The notes: generated by a model from the letters alone, not told the origin. 64,000 nt of DNA from an uncultured Candidatus Saccharibacteria bacterium (GCA_964512315.1 CAZEIK010000004.1:8198-72197); one strand, 5' to 3'; counted from the first letter of the stretch, positions 33,664 to 44,250 are shown. Numbers and translations: made by a program.

Positions 33664-34260
33664 TTATGGGGCTAAGTTAAAAATACAAGTATTAGTTACG
33701 CCAGTACATGTCTCTATGTCACCATTAGCCATGTTAGCAGTAACTGGGAGTATCATACCTGCTGCTGACCAGTCGACTCCACGCCAAGAAGTTGTCGCAG
33801 TACCTGATGCGTCACTGTCTGAAGAGAGCGCCGAATTACTTTTCTCCAAATCAACCCACAACTGATAAGACTGACACAGCCCACCAGAAAAACATGCAAC
33901 ACCCACATAGTTGTAAAGAGGCCCCGTCCCTCCAGATGCTGTTCCATTAAATGCGCCGTCTGGTAACTTGCTCACTATGTTTGAACTTACTAACGCACAG
34001 AGAGATGTTGAAGTCGAGCAGCCCGCAGACTTAGTTGGAACTGTACCAGTTGCTGGATAGCGACCGTTATTATTCTGCGCCCACTGAGAAAGTCCTTTAT
34101 GTAGACCAGTAAGTTCGGCAATTTTTCTTCCATCTCTAGAACGAGCAAGTGCTGTTGCAAAACTTGGAATTATGATAACAGATAGAACACCGATAATAGC
34201 AATCACTACGATGAGCTCGAGGAGTGTGAAGCCTTTTGATTTTACTTTTTTATTATTCAT
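33664..34260 (-). CDS. Major type IV pilin (paralog 2; tandem duplicate)
   Basis: 198 aa. Identical N-terminal 25 aa. About 90% nucleotide identity to paralog 1 over the first ~200 nt, with a divergent C-terminus. Confidence 0.8.
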   Translation of the reverse strand: MNNKKVKSKGFTLLELIVVIAIIGVLSVIIIPSFATALARSRDGRKIAELTGLHKGLSQWAQNNNGRYPATGTVPTKSAGCSTSTSLCALVSSNIVSKLPDGAFNGTASGGTGPLYNYVGVACFSGGLCQSYQLWVDLEKSNSALSSDSDASGTATTSWRGVDWSAAGMILPVTANMANGDIETCTGVTNTCIFNLAP

Positions 34261-34338
34261 AGAAAAAATATATGGCTTTTAGATACGATTAATTATAATC
34301 CTCAAAAGTTTTTATATTTAAAACTTATCCACAAAAAA

Positions 34339-41093: not shown

Positions 41094-41110
41094 CTTGGTT
41101 TTAAGTATAC

Positions 41111-41139
41111 AAAACCCTCGCGTGGGATGCGAGGGTTTT
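41111..41139. terminator. Bidirectional rho-independent terminator
   Basis: aaaaccctcgc-gtgggat-gcgagggtttt: an 11-bp G/C-rich stem with flanking A and T runs. It separates the small basic gene from pilM. Confidence 0.7.
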
Positions 41140-41160
41140 GTCTTCCGAAGATGTTGAGAA

Positions 41161-41307
41161 CTATTTTCTCTTTGCAGTCTTCTTAGCAGCTTTTTTAGCT
41201 ACTTTCTTAACTGCTTTCTTCACAGCTTTCTTAGCAACTTTCTTAACAGCTTTTTTAACTGCTTTCTTAGCTACTTTTTTAACTGCTTTCTTTTTTGTTA
41301 CTGCCAT
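41161..41307 (-). CDS. Small Lys/Ala-repeat basic protein (histone H1-like / Hc1-like tail protein)
   Basis: Not in the ORF track (below 60 aa). Minus-strand translation from ATG 41307 to TAG 41161 reads MAVTKKKAVKKVAKKAVKKAVKKVAKKAVKKAVKKVAKKAAKKTAKRK (48 aa). That is five to six AVKKVAKK repeats. The +-strand 61-aa FLATFL ORF (41138..41323) is its mirror. Confidence 0.65.
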   Translation of the reverse strand: MAVTKKKAVKKVAKKAVKKAVKKVAKKAVKKAVKKVAKKAAKKTAKRK

Positions 41308-41485
41308 AGTATATGTAATGTAAAACTTGCGAGAGTGCTAGCATTGATTTGACCATGATCACTCACTCTCAATCATAAGTATCACATGCAAAAAATTTTT
41401 GTGTTACTACTTTTTTAATTTTAATTGTGGATAACTCAAAATTTTTAAATTTGATACAAATGCAAGCGCTTCGCACTTGCATTTA

Positions 41486-43450
41486 TTAGAATCCTAATAA
41501 TGCATCTAGCGCTCGCGTAAATATTGCATCGCCTCCCAGCTTAGCCATCTCACCTTTAGGTAATCTAAAGAAATGTCTAATCATTGCAGATCTTCTTCTG
41601 CGCATCATACGACGAGCCTTCTTCATAAGCTTCTTCTTTAACTTGATTTCTTTTTCATTAGACTCAGGCATATCATTGATCCACTCTCTTGCCTTCGCAA
41701 TGTCTTCTTTAGGGTCACCGAGCGACTCGTTAACATTTTTCTGATCATGATAAGTGAGACCGCTCTTGTGTTTTTCAAAAGGTGTGTACAATTTTTGTAT
41801 CCATCCACCTTTTTCTTGTACAGCTTCTTGTTTAGCTTTGAATTCGAGCTTGCTATTAGCCTCCTCCATATTTATTTGTCTTATCTTGTCTTCAATCTTT
41901 TCAATAACCTCTTCTGCAGCATGGAGCTTCTCCATAACTTCTTTTTCTTTGGCGACTCTCTTTTTATCTACTGCTTCTTTTAATTTTGCTATGCGAGATT
42001 CGGCTTTGTCCAAAATGCTTCTAATCATTGTTCTGGTTGGCTCATTCTCAGGCGTATCAGGCAAAAGGTCTAATTCATCTTGAGCCTCTCTTACCGCTAT
42101 TTCTTCTGCATCTACTAAAATAGTAAATGTCGCCTTTTGCCCATCATCAAAGGACTTGCCTATATCCCTTTTATCACCTTCTTCTTTTACTTGTTTCTCT
42201 ATTAGTACAAGCCTATCAGAAATCTGTCTAGCATTTTCTCTCTGGTCTTTTGCCTCTGGTCTACCCTCAACTTTTTCTCTTAATTGAAAGATCAAGCTAG
42301 CCGCGAACCCTAACCTTCTCTCTAACTCGCTTATCTGTGCGGCAGTCTTTATATCTATTGGAGCTACTGCTGACATACCAAGAACCTTCTCTGTTAAAAG
42401 AGTTTGTATTTCTACCGACACAGCCTCTTGCGCAGCCAACTCATTAATAAATGGCTCCTTATCTGCGTCATCCAACTTCTTATCTTTTTTAAGTGCTTCT
42501 TCTAGTCTTGCTTTTACTTTTGATAAGTCCGCCTCCACTTTATCTAAGCCTTCATTAAGATGATTCCTGGTCTCTGCAAATTCATCGAAAGAATGCTCGA
42601 GCGCGTGCTCAACTCTTTTTAATAGTGGACCAGCACCATATGCAGCATCTCTAGATAAGAAAGCCTCCCAGTTCATCTCTTCTCCCGCAGGAACGTCTTC
42701 GAACTGTTTTCTAATTTTAAGAACTTGGTCCATTAGTCCTTTTTGCGCAGGGTCATCTACGTCTAACTTCATCTTGCCCTCCTTCTTGCCAAGCTTCTTA
42801 GCGTTACCAATTGCTGCCGCATACTCATACAACACACCCTCAAGCTCCACAGCGAACAACTCTTTCTCCGCATCCGAAATACTGCCGCCATGCGCAGCAG
42901 ATTCTATTCTCTTCATTAATGTTACGAGCTTGGTAAGAGATGTGCCTAATGTTCCGGTTACATCCCTAAGAAGCTCAGCTTTCTTTTTCGCTAAGGCTTC
43001 TGGACTACCGTTTTCAATACTTTTCCAAACTGAAGCAAAATCCAAATCATACTCTCTTCTTTTTGCTTCTAAAAACTTATTGATATCAGTTTTGAGTGTC
43101 ACCAACCCAGCCGAGTCAGCCCTCTTTTGATCTTCATTAAGACTGGCGTCAGATCTAACATTTTCTTCCGCGGTAGATATACTACTAAAAACACTCTGGA
43201 CATTATTTAAAAGGCCTTCAATACCTATCAGAATTTGAGTCCTAGCATCTTCTTCACTTATTTCTTTTGCGTCTACTTTTCCTTTATTTTCTTTTAGAAG
43301 AGTAGCCAAACTTGTCCCGAAAGCATTAATTTGATTTTCATAATTTCTTCTAGCTTCTTTTGTATGCGGGCCTCCTTCTGGTTGTTTCTTTTTTTTATTG
43401 CCTGGATTGTTGCTTGGATTATTCTGTTGTGGTGCTCCTCCTAATGCCAT
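41486..43450 (-). CDS. Large coiled-coil hypothetical protein with a Lys-rich disordered N-terminal tail
   Basis: 654 aa. N-terminus PGNKKKKQPEGGPHTKEARR. Extensive charged heptad-like sequence. Arg-rich C-terminus (MMRRRRSAMIRHF). Confidence 0.5.
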   Translation of the reverse strand: MALGGAPQQNNPSNNPGNKKKKQPEGGPHTKEARRNYENQINAFGTSLATLLKENKGKVDAKEISEEDARTQILIGIEGLLNNVQSVFSSISTAEENVRSDASLNEDQKRADSAGLVTLKTDINKFLEAKRREYDLDFASVWKSIENGSPEALAKKKAELLRDVTGTLGTSLTKLVTLMKRIESAAHGGSISDAEKELFAVELEGVLYEYAAAIGNAKKLGKKEGKMKLDVDDPAQKGLMDQVLKIRKQFEDVPAGEEMNWEAFLSRDAAYGAGPLLKRVEHALEHSFDEFAETRNHLNEGLDKVEADLSKVKARLEEALKKDKKLDDADKEPFINELAAQEAVSVEIQTLLTEKVLGMSAVAPIDIKTAAQISELERRLGFAASLIFQLREKVEGRPEAKDQRENARQISDRLVLIEKQVKEEGDKRDIGKSFDDGQKATFTILVDAEEIAVREAQDELDLLPDTPENEPTRTMIRSILDKAESRIAKLKEAVDKKRVAKEKEVMEKLHAAEEVIEKIEDKIRQINMEEANSKLEFKAKQEAVQEKGGWIQKLYTPFEKHKSGLTYHDQKNVNESLGDPKEDIAKAREWINDMPESNEKEIKLKKKLMKKARRMMRRRRSAMIRHFFRLPKGEMAKLGGDAIFTRALDALLGF

Positions 43451-43479: not shown

Positions 43480-43962
43480 TTAAGCTCTAGGTTTTTTACA
43501 CTTTGGAGTCTTACACATACACCCCTTCTCGGCTATGTATTCGTCAAAGAATTCTTGTCCATAGTCATACACTATCTCGTCTCCTGCTTGTATATTTTTC
43601 CTAGCTACTATAAACACGCGACCTTTCTTGATCTCACTCTCAGCATTACCATCACAGCTGTGGTTACAATATCTTGCTATATTCCATCTTGGTGATCCGT
43701 CTATTGTCTTGTCGCGGTGTATTTCAAATAGATACATATTCGGCTTGGCCTCGCGTGAGTCTTTGCCTAACAAAATATTACCTGTGTACTCGATAATAAC
43801 CTCACCCTTTTTAATATCCTCATCGGCGAAAAGCCCGAGTCCGTCTATACCACGCCTCGCTTTTACTTTTTTAAATATATGATTCCTGTCGGCCTTACTT
43901 AACTTTGACTGTGTTTTTTGCATTTTGTTGTATATTTGTATCACAAAACTTAACACTTTCAA
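43480..43962 (-). CDS. SET-domain protein-lysine methyltransferase (bacterial SET with post-SET Cys cluster)
   Basis: 160 aa. GLGLFADEDIKKGEVIIEYTG. NHSC(D)GN pseudoknot motif. Catalytic Tyr context (EIVYDY). C-terminal CMCKTPKC post-SET zinc motif. Confidence 0.75.
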   Translation of the reverse strand: MKVLSFVIQIYNKMQKTQSKLSKADRNHIFKKVKARRGIDGLGLFADEDIKKGEVIIEYTGNILLGKDSREAKPNMYLFEIHRDKTIDGSPRWNIARYCNHSCDGNAESEIKKGRVFIVARKNIQAGDEIVYDYGQEFFDEYIAEKGCMCKTPKCKKPRA

Positions 43963-43965
43963 AAT

Positions 43966-44250
43966 TTATGGCCAAAAAATAGGATCCCTACTTTGGTGTA
44001 TAACTTTTAAAATTCTAACCTCTTTATTTTTTATTTCATAAAATATACAAAATGGAAAGTTTATAAAGTTAATTCTTCTTACGTCGTCATATCTTGTACG
44101 ATACATTGCTGGCTGAGATGACAGACTACTCTCTATTTTTAACAACTCTAATTTAAAATTATTTAAGACTTTAATATCTATATTTTTATAGAATAAAATT
44201 ATATCCAGTAAATCATTCCTAGATATCTCGTTATAGACAACTTTATACAT
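43966..44250 (-). CDS. Type II toxin, RelE/ParE family
   Basis: 94 aa. ParE-like pattern (…YRTRYDDVRR…FCIFYEI…VRILKVIHQSRD). Confidence 0.7.
   Translation of the reverse strand: MYKVVYNEISRNDLLDIILFYKNIDIKVLNNFKLELLKIESSLSSQPAMYRTRYDDVRRINFINFPFCIFYEIKNKEVRILKVIHQSRDPIFWP

What the first reader, a model, noticed from the sequence alone, without database searches (positions are those of the whole stretch)
41161..41307. Unannotated 48-aa AVKKVAKK-repeat basic protein whose mirror-strand ORF masquerades as a 61-aa hydrophobic protein
The ORF track only lists the +-strand 61-aa ORF (41138..41323, FLATFLTAF repeats). The minus strand of the same DNA encodes MAVTKKKAVKKVAKKAVKK…TAKRK. This ORF has ATG at 41307 and TAG at 41161. 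It is bracketed by two hairpin terminators (41111–41139 and ~41449–41475) and has an AT-rich upstream region. The basic repeat protein is far more plausible biologically: H1/HU-tail-like DNA binders use exactly this AKKA periodicity. The codon-level repeat of 24 nt is also visible directly in the DNA.
Basis: seen in the sequence. Interest (0 to 1): 0.7.

Follow-up and report, generated by a model that had tools for sequence, protein, structure and literature searches.

The report
Tiny lysine-rich histone-H1-like protein gene
The minus strand at 41161-41307 holds a real gene for a 48-residue, half-lysine protein. It belongs to an undescribed family of tiny histone-H1-tail-like proteins in ultra-small (Patescibacteria) bacteria, whose promoters carry a DnaA box and which often sit next to a SET-domain lysine methyltransferase gene.

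Summary
The 48-aa ORF (ATG 41307, TAG 41161-41163, minus strand) and its 61-aa plus-strand mirror both exist. The repeat period is 12/36 nt, not 24.

Comparative data show that the lysine-rich frame is the gene. Three related species have orthologues at the same place, and about 20 distinct relatives occur in metagenomes. All keep an ATG start, (A/V)(A/V)KK repeats and a TAKRK-type end, and most are followed by a terminator. Differences are mainly synonymous. The mirror frame stays open only because of composition and has no conserved start.

Three things were not in the finding:
- A perfect DnaA box, TTATCCACA, lies in one orientation about 41 nt upstream of a conserved -35/-10 promoter in 25 of 53 small family genes. 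The chance expectation is 0.006 per gene.
- The leader is long and conserved and carries a GGTC motif, in a genome that is otherwise SD-less and largely leaderless.
- A SET-domain gene is syntenic throughout one clade, and in one unrelated contig a SET domain is fused to an AKK tail.

The most likely function is a polycationic, helix-forming, sequence-independent DNA binder and compactor. This is inferred, not shown. No curated protein or RNA family matches. I rate it a new variant of a known kind, of moderate interest.

The parts
41161..41307 (-). Coding sequence of the 48-aa protein (5.2 kDa, 23 Lys + 1 Arg, no acidic residue, pI 11.8). ATG at 41307-41305, TAG at 41163-41161.
   Evidence: Orthologues. 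Family. Synonymous/non-synonymous counts. AlphaFold2 gives one helix over residues 2-47, pLDDT 85.
41111..41139 (-). Intrinsic terminator of the small gene. Stem 41135-41129 / 41121-41115, loop ATCCCAC, T-run 41114-41111. An A-run on the other side makes it look bidirectional.
   Evidence: Fold -12.9 kcal/mol. Nearly invariant in L007-L009: one compensated stem pair in L009. 14 of 17 family members have such a hairpin plus T-run.
41308..41371 (-). Inferred 5' leader of about 64 nt, running from the predicted start ~7 nt after the -10 to the ATG. It overlaps the most conserved 60-nt stretch of the 10-kb locus.
   Evidence: window 41292-41348: 92% four-way identity against a 39% mean. The transcription start is inferred, not shown.
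41351..41354 (-). GGTC motif of the leader. GGTC followed by G or A lies 35-55 nt before the ATG in 19 of the 21 family leaders examined (71 and 80 nt in the other two).
41331..41370 (-). Possible leader stem GAGAGTG (41370-41364) / CACTCTC (41337-41331) enclosing the GGTC motif. It is invariant in its clade, so there is no covariation.
   Evidence: Thermodynamically unremarkable (z = 0.3).
41378..41386 (-). Extended -10 element TGTGATACT (hexamer GATACT at 41383-41378). It corresponds to the family's GATAAT.
41402..41407 (-). -35-like hexamer GTAACA, 18 nt before the -10. Relatives have TTGAGA, TTGTGT or TTGTAT at 16-17 nt.
   Evidence: read from the sequences.
41426..41434 (-). Perfect DnaA box TTATCCACA. 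It lies 127 nt before the ATG and ends 42 nt before the -10.
41458..41481 (-). Terminator-like hairpin of the upstream 654-aa gene (TGCAAGTGC-GAA-GCGCTTGCA, then TTT). It isolates the small gene as its own transcription unit.
   Evidence: Conserved in the alignment.
43480..43962 (-). SET-domain gene (160 aa), syntenic with the small gene throughout its clade. Candidate lysine methyltransferase acting on the small protein (inferred).
   Evidence: Pfam SET E = 1.8e-23. Synteny. SET fused to an AKK tail in L140.
41138..41323 (+). 61-aa mirror ORF (FLATFL repeats). Judged not to be a gene.
   Evidence: The frame is open by composition in 20 of 21 relatives. Its start codon is not conserved or is absent. 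Its TTG start lies inside the terminator. It has the worse synonymous/non-synonymous balance, 88/149 against 130/106.

Best explanation
Positions 41161-41307 (minus strand) are a genuine monocistronic gene.

Transcription, inferred from conserved sequence:
- It starts from a sigma-70-type promoter: -35 at 41407-41402 and an extended -10, TGTGATACT, at 41386-41378.
- A perfect DnaA box (41434-41426) sits at a fixed distance upstream of the promoter, roughly -55 to -65.
- The transcript then runs through a ~64-nt conserved leader.
- It ends at the hairpin plus T-run at 41139-41111.

The product is a 5.2-kDa peptide that is half lysine, built of (A/V)(A/V)KK tetrads. It is predicted to form one long helix whose lysine ridge winds around the axis.

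The most likely mechanism (inferred) is that of a free-standing histone-H1 tail. It would bind the phosphate backbone of DNA without sequence preference, neutralise charge, and help compact or coat the chromosome of a very small cell.

Two further steps are inferred from context only. First, DnaA bound at the box ties synthesis of the protein to the replication cycle. Second, the syntenic SET-domain enzyme methylates its lysines.

Shown here: the coding frame, the family, the conserved promoter/box/terminator architecture and the SET synteny. Not shown: transcription, the binding partner, DnaA binding and methylation.
For: The gene is real and on the minus strand:
- Orthologues lie directly upstream of pilM in three species whose PilM is 75-86% identical. 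They keep MAVTKKK...AKRK and all gaps are multiples of 3.
- About 20 distinct family members were found.
- Against L087 the protein is 40/47 aa identical, and 24 of 31 nucleotide differences fall at codon position 3.
- Summed synonymous/non-synonymous codon differences are 130/106 in the lysine frame and 88/149 in the mirror frame.
- The mirror ORF has no conserved start.
- 14 of 17 members have a terminator downstream.
- All neighbouring genes are on the minus strand.

Promoter and DnaA box:
- 25 of 53 small AKK genes carry a perfect TTATCCACA in the forward orientation 129-231 nt upstream, and none in reverse.
- The background is 33 boxes in 1.54 Mb of strand-sequence, or 0.006 per 300 nt.
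- The box ends 40-43 nt before the -10 in 15 of 18 sequences.
- -35 TTGxxx, a 16-17 nt spacer and GATAAT are conserved.
- The region 41292-41348 is the best-conserved 60 nt of the locus.

Nucleic-acid binding:
- The same AVKKVAKKAVKK sequence forms tails on topoisomerase I, SWIB, Rho, Obg and a SET protein.
- It also forms the tail of a 199-aa protein whose N-terminal part looks RsfS-like to me; this was not scanned.
- The 39-residue AKKA-repeat domain of HbhA is necessary and sufficient for sequence-independent DNA binding (PMC10665949).
- AlphaFold2 predicts a single helix, pLDDT 85. The hydrophobic moment peaks at 90 degrees per residue.

SET link:
- A SET gene lies immediately upstream in the window group, L096, L153, L217 and L219. 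In the window and in L218 other genes have been inserted between the two.
- None of 77 control Patescibacteria loci (743 kb) has a SET gene.
- In L140 a SET domain is fused to an AKK tail.
- Precedents: cpnSET methylates chlamydial Hc1, and Go1-SET methylates MC1-alpha (PMC3980110).
Against: - There is no expression, proteomic or binding data.
- No curated family matches (Pfam, NCBIfam, PDB), so the function rests on composition and context.
- AKK tails also occur on RNA- or ribosome-linked proteins (Rho, Obg, and the protein that looks RsfS-like) and on HtpG and a phosphatidylserine decarboxylase. The partner could therefore be RNA or another polyanion.
- SET synteny is confined to one clade (the class with the GAGAGT...ACTCTC leader). 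It may be inherited gene order; only the L140 fusion is independent.
- There is a single DnaA box. Its occupation by DnaA, and whether that activates or represses, are unknown.
- The gene is not found at the pilM-upstream position in 76 more distant loci, so it may be dispensable or located elsewhere.
Confidence: 0.55

Rival explanations
1. The gene is real, but the peptide works on RNA or the ribosome. It would act as a ribosome-associated or RNA-chaperoning polycation, possibly autoregulating through its conserved leader as ribosomal proteins do, rather than on DNA.
For: - Identical AKK tails occur on Obg and Rho and on a protein that looks RsfS-like, which was not scanned.
- The long conserved leader with a GGTC motif is unusual in a genome where 22 of 59 genes look leaderless. 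This recalls r-protein leaders.
- In some relatives the gene lies near 16S rRNA and RNase P RNA or near rpsP.
- The promoter is strong and A/T-flanked.
Against: - Copy number of the tetrad varies freely (29-62 aa). This fits non-specific electrostatic binding better than a defined rRNA site.
- No ribosomal-protein family matches.
- The DnaA box and SET synteny point to chromosome biology.
- Leader structure is not supported by covariation.
Confidence: 0.2
2. The gene is real, but the peptide acts on another polyanion or outside the cell. It might organise polyphosphate granules (like AlgP), or serve as a cationic adhesin or antimicrobial-like peptide used by an episymbiont against or on its host.
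For: - The H1-like protein AlgP organises polyphosphate granules (PMC9239181).
- The HbhA lysine-rich domain also binds host glycoconjugates (PMC10665949).
- The local 18-residue hydrophobic moment is 0.59.
- In this lineage the gene abuts the type IV pilus operon. In others it abuts secA.
Against: - There is no signal peptide, leader-peptide processing site, transporter or immunity gene next to it.
- Over the whole length the moment at 100 degrees is about 0, so the helix has no single hydrophobic face.
- Downstream neighbours vary (pilM, secA, others), so linkage to pili or secretion is not conserved.
Confidence: 0.1
3. The plus-strand 61-aa hydrophobic ORF (41138-41323) is the real product, for example a small membrane protein or a type I toxin, and the lysine frame is the shadow.
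For: - It is the longer ORF, and its codon log-likelihood is also positive: 0.31 per codon against 0.51 for the lysine frame and a gene mean of 0.27.
- The frame is open in 20 of 21 relatives.
Against: - Openness follows automatically from AAR/GCN/GTN codons on the other strand.
- The start codon is not conserved. There is none in L096 and L213, and only 6-39 aa remain in L147, L136, L087, L153 and L008.
- Its TTG start lies inside the terminator.
- The charged 'GD' insertions in L008 break the hydrophobic pattern.
- Its synonymous/non-synonymous balance is worse.
- The promoter and terminator face the other way.
Confidence: 0.02
4. It is not a gene at all, but a non-coding tandem repeat or structured RNA element between the 654-aa gene and pilM.
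For: - It is a 12/36-nt tandem repeat.
- The transcript region folds much better than shuffles (z = -5.4), because GCAGCU-type units are self-complementary.
Against: - The protein sequence is conserved while codons differ.
- The ATG, the stop and the N- and C-terminal motifs are conserved, and all indels are in-frame.
- There is no Rfam match.
Confidence: 0.02

Closest known systems
C-terminal AKKA/PAKKA-repeat DNA-binding domains of mycobacterial HbhA and HupB (Hlp/MDP1)
   Same: Both are a short lysine/alanine repeat segment. HbhA residues 161-199 (39 aa, five AKKA motifs) are necessary and sufficient for sequence-independent DNA binding (PMC10665949). The window protein is the same size and contains VAKKAV three times.
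   Different: Here the repeat is the whole protein, with no coiled-coil or HU fold attached. It has no proline (although L008/L009 have SPARK/SPAKK). The tetrad is regular, (A/V)(A/V)KK, with a 12-aa super-repeat.
Chlamydial histone H1-like proteins Hc2 (HctB, Pfam PF07382) and Hc1
   Same: These are bacterial Lys/Ala-rich repeat proteins that condense the nucleoid. Repeat number varies between strains (PMC2848022). Hc1 is reported to be methylated by the chlamydial SET protein cpnSET (PMC3980110), which parallels the SET synteny seen here.
   Different: Hc2 is 165-237 aa and built of pentamers. No member of the present family matches the HC2 or Hc1 profiles, even at E <= 10. The phylum differs. 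No DnaA-box promoter is known to me for hctA/hctB (own knowledge).
Eukaryotic linker histone H1 C-terminal domain
   Same: The composition is similar (Lys, Ala, some Ser/Thr/Pro), S/TPxK motifs occur in some orthologues, and an induced helix is expected on DNA (established knowledge of H1).
   Different: There is no winged-helix globular domain. The protein is half the length of the H1 tail and strictly periodic.
Pseudomonas AlgP and Streptomyces DdbA / HupS H1-like domains
   Same: These are bacterial H1-like Lys/Ala/Pro repeat regions that bind polyanions: DNA in most cases, and polyphosphate granules for AlgP (PMC9239181, PMC3643593).
   Different: Those are large proteins or domains fused to other functions (KPAA repeats, a DksA-like domain, an HU fold). 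The present protein is a 29-62-aa stand-alone peptide family.
DnaA-regulated small genes (for example B. subtilis sda; own knowledge)
   Same: Both are very small proteins whose promoter region carries DnaA boxes, which suggests coupling to replication status.
   Different: The sequences are unrelated. Here there is one perfect box at a fixed upstream position. DnaA binding and its effect are untested.

Membership tests
Pfam HC2 (PF07382, chlamydial histone H1-like Hc2) | Match to the family profile at or above its gathering score (40 bits) | tested here: not met
   No HC2 hit for the window protein at E <= 1, nor for any of 22 family members at E <= 10. The model does see AKK tails weakly elsewhere: an Obg tail scores 24 bits.
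Pfam HC2 (PF07382, chlamydial histone H1-like Hc2) | 165-237 aa built of lysine-rich pentamers (PMC2848022) | tested here: not met
   48 aa. The period is 12 nt (a tetrad) with a 36-nt super-repeat.
Linker histone H1/H5 (Pfam Linker_histone) | Winged-helix globular domain | tested here: not met
   No Pfam hit. The whole protein is one low-complexity helix.
HU/IHF family with a basic tail (Bac_DNA_binding) | HU fold N-terminal to the lysine-rich tail | tested here: not met
   No Pfam or NCBIfam hit. The ORF begins 4 residues before the first KKK.
AKKA-repeat DNA-binding modules (HbhA and HupB C-terminal domains) | Several AKKA-type motifs in a segment of about 40 residues, free of acidic residues | tested here: met
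   The sequence has VAKKAV x3 plus VKKA/VKKV, 23 K, 1 R and no D or E.
AKKA-repeat DNA-binding modules (HbhA and HupB C-terminal domains) | Sequence-independent DNA binding | not testable with these tools
   Needs an EMSA or compaction assay with the peptide.
Tiny AKK-repeat protein family of Patescibacteria (defined here) | 29-62 aa; starts M-(A/P/V)-x(0-2)-KK; (A/V/T)(A/V/T)KK repeats; ends in a basic tail, commonly TAKR(K/A) or KKK | tested here: met
Tiny AKK-repeat protein family of Patescibacteria (defined here) | Forward TTATCCACA ending ~41 nt before a GATAAT-type -10, a leader with GGTC, and an intrinsic terminator | tested here: met
   Window: box 41434-41426, -10 at 41383-41378, GGTC at 41354-41351, terminator 41139-41111.
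DnaA regulon | High-affinity 9-mer TTATCCACA in the promoter region, conserved across relatives | tested here: met
   25 of 53 genes, one orientation only, against 0.006 expected per 300 nt.
DnaA regulon | DnaA binds the site and changes transcription | not testable with these tools
   Needs a footprint or reporter assay.
Substrate of a SET-domain lysine methyltransferase | Conserved genomic association with a SET gene | tested here: met
   Adjacent or near in every class-A locus that reaches far enough upstream, except L161, which has 1.7 kb upstream and no SET hit. 0 of 77 control loci. Fusion in L140. The adjacency is restricted to one clade.
Substrate of a SET-domain lysine methyltransferase | Methyl-lysines on the peptide | not testable with these tools
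   Needs mass spectrometry or an in vitro assay.
Type I toxin / small membrane protein (plus-strand ORF) | Conserved ORF with a conserved start and its own promoter | tested here: not met
   The start is absent or shifted in relatives. The TTG start lies within the terminator.
Known RNA families (Rfam 15) for the leader | Match at gathering score | tested here: not met

The most novel reading that the evidence does not exclude
Patescibacteria may possess a minimal chromatin module with three parts:
- a 30-60-residue free-standing 'H1 tail' peptide;
- synthesis of that peptide coupled to replication initiation through a fixed DnaA box upstream of its promoter, a bacterial analogue of replication-dependent histone expression;
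- methylation of its lysines by the syntenic SET-domain enzyme, i.e. a writer-substrate pair.
The conserved GGTC leader would add a further layer of post-transcriptional control.
Probability: 0.2. Interest if true: 0.8.

Novelty: new variant of a known kind. Interest (0 to 1): 0.55.

Why it matters
Very small, half-lysine proteins are systematically missed or mis-called. Here they fall below the ORF cut-off, are shadowed by a longer mirror ORF, and in public sets are often given spurious N-terminal extensions. Homology tools also filter them out.

This one anchors a family that seems common in Patescibacteria, organisms whose chromosome organisation is essentially unstudied. The conserved DnaA-box promoter and the SET-domain neighbour give two directly testable links: replication status to production of a nucleoid protein, and lysine methylation of a bacterial histone-like protein. 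If either holds, it extends ideas so far based on Chlamydia and archaea to a large, uncultured part of the bacterial tree.

If neither holds, this remains an ordinary hypothetical small basic protein, and a useful example of how to decide between mirror ORFs.

Tried and rejected
- Codon-usage likelihood: both mirror frames score positive (0.51 against 0.31 per codon), so it does not decide between them.
- Mirror-frame openness: the frame is open in 20 of 21 relatives purely from composition, so it is uninformative.
- Single-sequence homology search (5.8 billion proteins): one hit only.
- Exhaustive phmmer against 1.84 billion representatives: five hits, all long repeat proteins.
- The search for related loci with the protein alignment in metagenomes: 600 pattern matches, all rejected by tblastn, presumably because of the low-complexity filter. 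I replaced it with a degenerate DNA pattern for AVKKVAKKAVKK.
- Pfam, NCBIfam and PDB sequence searches: nothing meaningful.
- Rfam at gathering score and at E <= 10, on the window and on 16 relatives' loci: nothing in the leader.
- Leader RNA structure:
  - the MFE is not better than shuffles (z = 0.3);
  - complementarity flanking GGTC is only slightly above control (6.7 against 5.4);
  - RNAalifold on the five class-A leaders found an invariant stem without compensatory changes;
  - I therefore do not claim a structured RNA.
- oriC or dnaA proximity as an explanation for the DnaA box: boxes are not clustered in the window (19 sites with <= 1 mismatch against 19.9 expected). Gene orientation does not switch.
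The single-sequence model was used instead.
- The exact-sequence cluster look-up did not contain the 44-50-aa products.

Full report
**1. The observation**

Reading both strands confirms a minus-strand ORF from ATG 41307 to TAG 41163-41161. It encodes MAVTKKKAVKKVAKKAVKKAVKKVAKKAVKKAVKKVAKKAAKKTAKRK. The plus-strand ORF 41138-41323 (61 aa, TTG start) is its mirror.

The two frames share third codon positions, so AAR, GCN and GTN on one strand read as TTY, TTN, GCY and ACY on the other.

Tandem Repeats Finder gives a period of 12 nt (9.4 copies) and a 36-nt super-repeat (3.1 copies, score 170). That is (AVKK-VAKK-AVKK)x3, not 24 nt.

- Hairpin 1 is exactly as described: CCCTCGC/GCGAGGG at 41135-41115 with TTTT at 41114-41111.
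- Hairpin 2 lies at 41481-41461, directly after the stop of the 654-aa gene.
- The peptide is 5.2 kDa with pI 11.8. It has 23 Lys, 1 Arg, 12 Ala, 9 Val and no acidic residue.

**2. The organism and the neighbourhood**

The window has 39% GC, and nearly all genes are on the minus strand.

On the minus strand, downstream of the small ORF, lies a type IV pilus cluster: pilM, pilN, pilO, two T2SSE ATPases, T2SSF and pilins. Upstream lie a 654-aa protein with no Pfam family, a SET-domain protein, a ParE-like ORF and a class I tRNA synthetase.

PilM relatives are named Patescibacteria, Paceibacterota, Nomurabacteria or 'Saccharibacteria' MAGs.

None of 59 other ORFs has a Shine-Dalgarno sequence. 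In 22 of them a TATAAT-like hexamer ends 6-9 nt before the start codon, so leaderless mRNAs appear to dominate. The lack of an SD before 41307 therefore says nothing against the gene.

**3. Which strand codes**

Two tests do not decide. Codon likelihood is positive for both frames. The mirror frame is open in 20 of 21 relatives simply because of composition.

The decisive evidence is comparative.

- (a) Three species whose PilM is 86%, 75% and 76% identical carry an ORF at the same place and on the same strand. It is 44 aa in L007 and 50 aa in L008/L009. It starts MAVTKKK, ends KRK, and differs from the window only by in-frame indels. L008/L009 have SPARK and SPAKK motifs.
- (b) A member in a different context (L087, between a murB-like gene and secA) uses different codons (AAG, GTA, GCC). 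It is still 40/47 aa identical, with 24 of 31 nucleotide differences at third positions.
- (c) Over nine comparisons, synonymous/non-synonymous codon differences are 130/106 in the lysine frame against 88/149 in the mirror frame.
- (d) The mirror ORF has no conserved start. There is none in L096 and L213. Only 6-39 residues remain in L147, L136, L087, L153 and L008. Elsewhere start type and position vary. In the window its TTG lies inside the terminator.
- (e) The promoter elements and the terminator are oriented for the lysine frame throughout the family.

Public gene callers already predict exactly this 48-aa product on 14 contigs, with the synteny SET - 654 aa - 48 aa - pilM in those that reach that far.

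**4. The family**

A profile search returned about 110 small proteins of the same type. All that carry a relevant name are called 'hypothetical'. Many have spurious N-terminal extensions caused by read-through of the upstream region.

- 55 are small ORFs.
- 65 are lysine-rich tails or long H1-like proteins.

Among the ten long ORFs scanned against Pfam, the tails sit on topoisomerase I, SWIB-domain proteins, Rho, Obg, HtpG, a phosphatidylserine decarboxylase and a SET-domain protein. So the sequence is a general polyanion-binding module, most often attached to DNA- or RNA-handling proteins.

The narrow family to which the window gene belongs is 29-62 aa long. Its pattern is M-(A/P/V)-x-KK, then (A/V/T)(A/V/T)KK repeats, then commonly TAKR(K/A).

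No member matches Pfam HC2, Hc1, linker histone or any other curated family, and no PDB sequence matches. AlphaFold2 predicts one helix over residues 2-47 with pLDDT 85. The hydrophobic moment peaks at 90 degrees per residue and is about 0 at 100 degrees over the full length, so the lysine ridge winds round the helix.

**5. A conserved control region (not part of the original finding)**

In the four-species alignment, the window 41292-41348 is the best-conserved 60 nt of the 10-kb locus. Its four-way identity is 92% against a mean of 39%.

Across the family the architecture is constant:

- (A/G)G-TTATCCACA, a perfect DnaA box always in the same orientation;
- 20-27 A/T-rich nucleotides;
- a -35 of the form TTGTAT, TTGTGT or TTGAGA;
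- a 16-17 nt spacer;
- a -10 GATAAT (GATACT with an upstream TG in the window).

The box ends 40-43 nt before the -10 in 15 of 18 sequences.

Of 53 small AKK genes with enough upstream sequence, 25 have the perfect box 129-231 nt before the ATG, and none has it in reverse. The loci hold 33 boxes in 1.54 Mb of strand-sequence, which is 0.006 per 300 nt. Those 25 come from about 17 distinct proteins; the window group adds three more.

The box is not part of an origin. Boxes are not clustered in the window. Gene orientation does not switch.

The leader is 68-172 nt long. It carries GGTC(G/A) 35-55 nt before the ATG in 19 of the 21 examined. Complementary flanks are suggestive but not significant, and no Rfam family matches. 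I leave the leader unexplained.

**6. SET synteny**

A SET-domain gene lies just upstream of the small gene in L096, L153, L217 and L219, in the order tRNA synthetase(-), SET(+), AKK gene(+).

- In the window group a 654-aa gene has been inserted between the two.
- In L218 the insertion is a diversity-generating retroelement.
- None of 77 control Patescibacteria loci (743 kb) contains a SET gene.
- In an unrelated 62%-GC contig (L140), a SET domain (E = 6e-29) is fused to an AKK tail.

The adjacency is confined to the clade that shares the GAGAGT...ACTCTC leader, so it may be a single inherited arrangement. The fusion is the only independent support.

There are precedents. cpnSET interacts with and methylates chlamydial Hc1, and Go1-SET methylates the archaeal chromatin protein MC1-alpha (PMC3980110).

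**7. Mechanism**

Shown: a monocistronic unit consisting of DnaA box, promoter, leader, 48-codon ORF and terminator.

Inferred: the peptide is disordered when free, and forms a helix on a polyanion. It binds DNA without sequence preference, as the 39-residue AKKA domain of HbhA does (PMC10665949), and so contributes to charge neutralisation and compaction. DnaA at about -60 would link its synthesis to replication initiation. SET would methylate it.

Rivals are RNA or ribosome binding (AKK tails also occur on Obg and Rho), and polyphosphate or surface roles (AlgP, PMC9239181). The plus-strand ORF and a non-coding repeat are effectively excluded.

**8. Novelty and verdict**

Literature searches found H1-like lysine-rich proteins in Chlamydia, Pseudomonas, Streptomyces and Mycobacterium. 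They found nothing on such peptides, their DnaA-box promoters or SET linkage in Patescibacteria.

The gene itself is an already-predicted hypothetical protein. The kind of protein, a bacterial H1-like polycation, is known. The minimal stand-alone form, with its conserved control region and SET neighbour, is a new variant.

- Interest: 0.55.
- Probability that the gene is real and on the minus strand: about 0.95.
- Confidence in the DNA-binding, nucleoid reading: about 0.55.

Noticed in passing
window 41426-41434 (-); L007, L008, L087, L093, L096, L097, L103, L104, L112, L136, L147, L153, L157, L161, L170, L182, L186, L213, L214, L215: A perfect DnaA box, TTATCCACA, always in the same orientation, ends 40-43 nt before a conserved GATAAT-type -10 upstream of the tiny AKK genes. 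It is present in 25 of 53 genes against 0.006 expected per 300 nt.
   Followed up: yes
window 41308-41371 (-), GGTC at 41351-41354; the leaders of the loci above: The leader is long (68-172 nt) and carries a near-universal GGTC(G/A) motif 35-55 nt before the ATG. In the window's clade it also has an invariant GAGAGT...ACTCTC pair. There is no Rfam match, and structure is not supported statistically. Its function is unknown.
   Followed up: partly
window 43480-43962 (-); L096 2197-2754; L153 14088-14477; L217 2813-3331; L219 2527-3117; L218 31-570; L140 12338-13075: A SET-domain gene is syntenic with the tiny AKK gene across one clade. In L140 (62% GC) a SET domain is fused to an AKK tail. This suggests a lysine methyltransferase-substrate pair.
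   Followed up: partly
whole window (upstream regions of 59 ORFs): There are no Shine-Dalgarno sequences. In 22 of 59 ORFs a TATAAT-like hexamer ends 6-9 nt before the start codon, which suggests predominantly leaderless mRNAs.
   Followed up: partly
L103 1051-2670 (16S rRNA), 3' end near 2620-2670: The 16S rRNA of one family-bearing organism ends ...GGAAGCTGTTCGTGGAATAATTC. It lacks the usual GATCACCTCCTT anti-SD, which fits the SD-less genes. A probable RNase P RNA (GGAGGAAAGTCCG at about 3265) lies between the 16S gene and the AKK gene.
   Followed up: no
window 41486-43450 (-); L218 839-3376: A 654-aa coiled-coil-like protein with no Pfam family and a very basic C-terminus is inserted between SET and the AKK gene, only in the window's lineage. 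In L218 a diversity-generating retroelement (bAvd + reverse transcriptase) occupies the equivalent place.
   Followed up: no
window 43966-44250 (-): A ParE-toxin-like ORF (Pfam E = 1.4e-9) abuts the SET gene with no obvious antitoxin ORF. It is absent from the nearly identical contig L001, where the tRNA synthetase and SET genes are only 45 nt apart.
   Followed up: no
window 34325-34333 (+): The only other perfect DnaA box in the window lies about 65 nt upstream of a pilin gene (33664-34260, N_methyl motif), in reverse orientation relative to that gene.
   Followed up: no
window 41104-41109 (-): TATACT directly follows the T-run of the terminator, 10 nt before the pilM ATG. The pilus operon therefore probably has its own, nearly leaderless promoter overlapping the small gene's terminator.
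   Followed up: no
L131, L141, L149, L197, L210, L194, L178, L099 (metagenome loci): The identical AVKKVAKKAVKK sequence forms terminal tails on topoisomerase I, Obg, HtpG, Rho, phosphatidylserine decarboxylase and SWIB-domain proteins in diverse, often GC-rich, organisms.
   Followed up: partly
P0141, P0153, P0155, P0157, P0176; L188, L189, L195; L102, L113: Other small lysine-rich architectures turned up: an N-terminal transmembrane helix plus acidic linker plus AKK tail; an AKK N-terminus fused to a Cys-rich (CGVCG...CGC...CC) domain; and peptides starting MACGCKKK.
   Followed up: no
P0001, P0127-P0158 (public gene calls): Many public calls of this family carry spurious N-terminal extensions, for example ...LQALSDLYNK..., which is simply the translated conserved leader GCACTCTCGGATTTGTATAATAAA.
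   Followed up: partly
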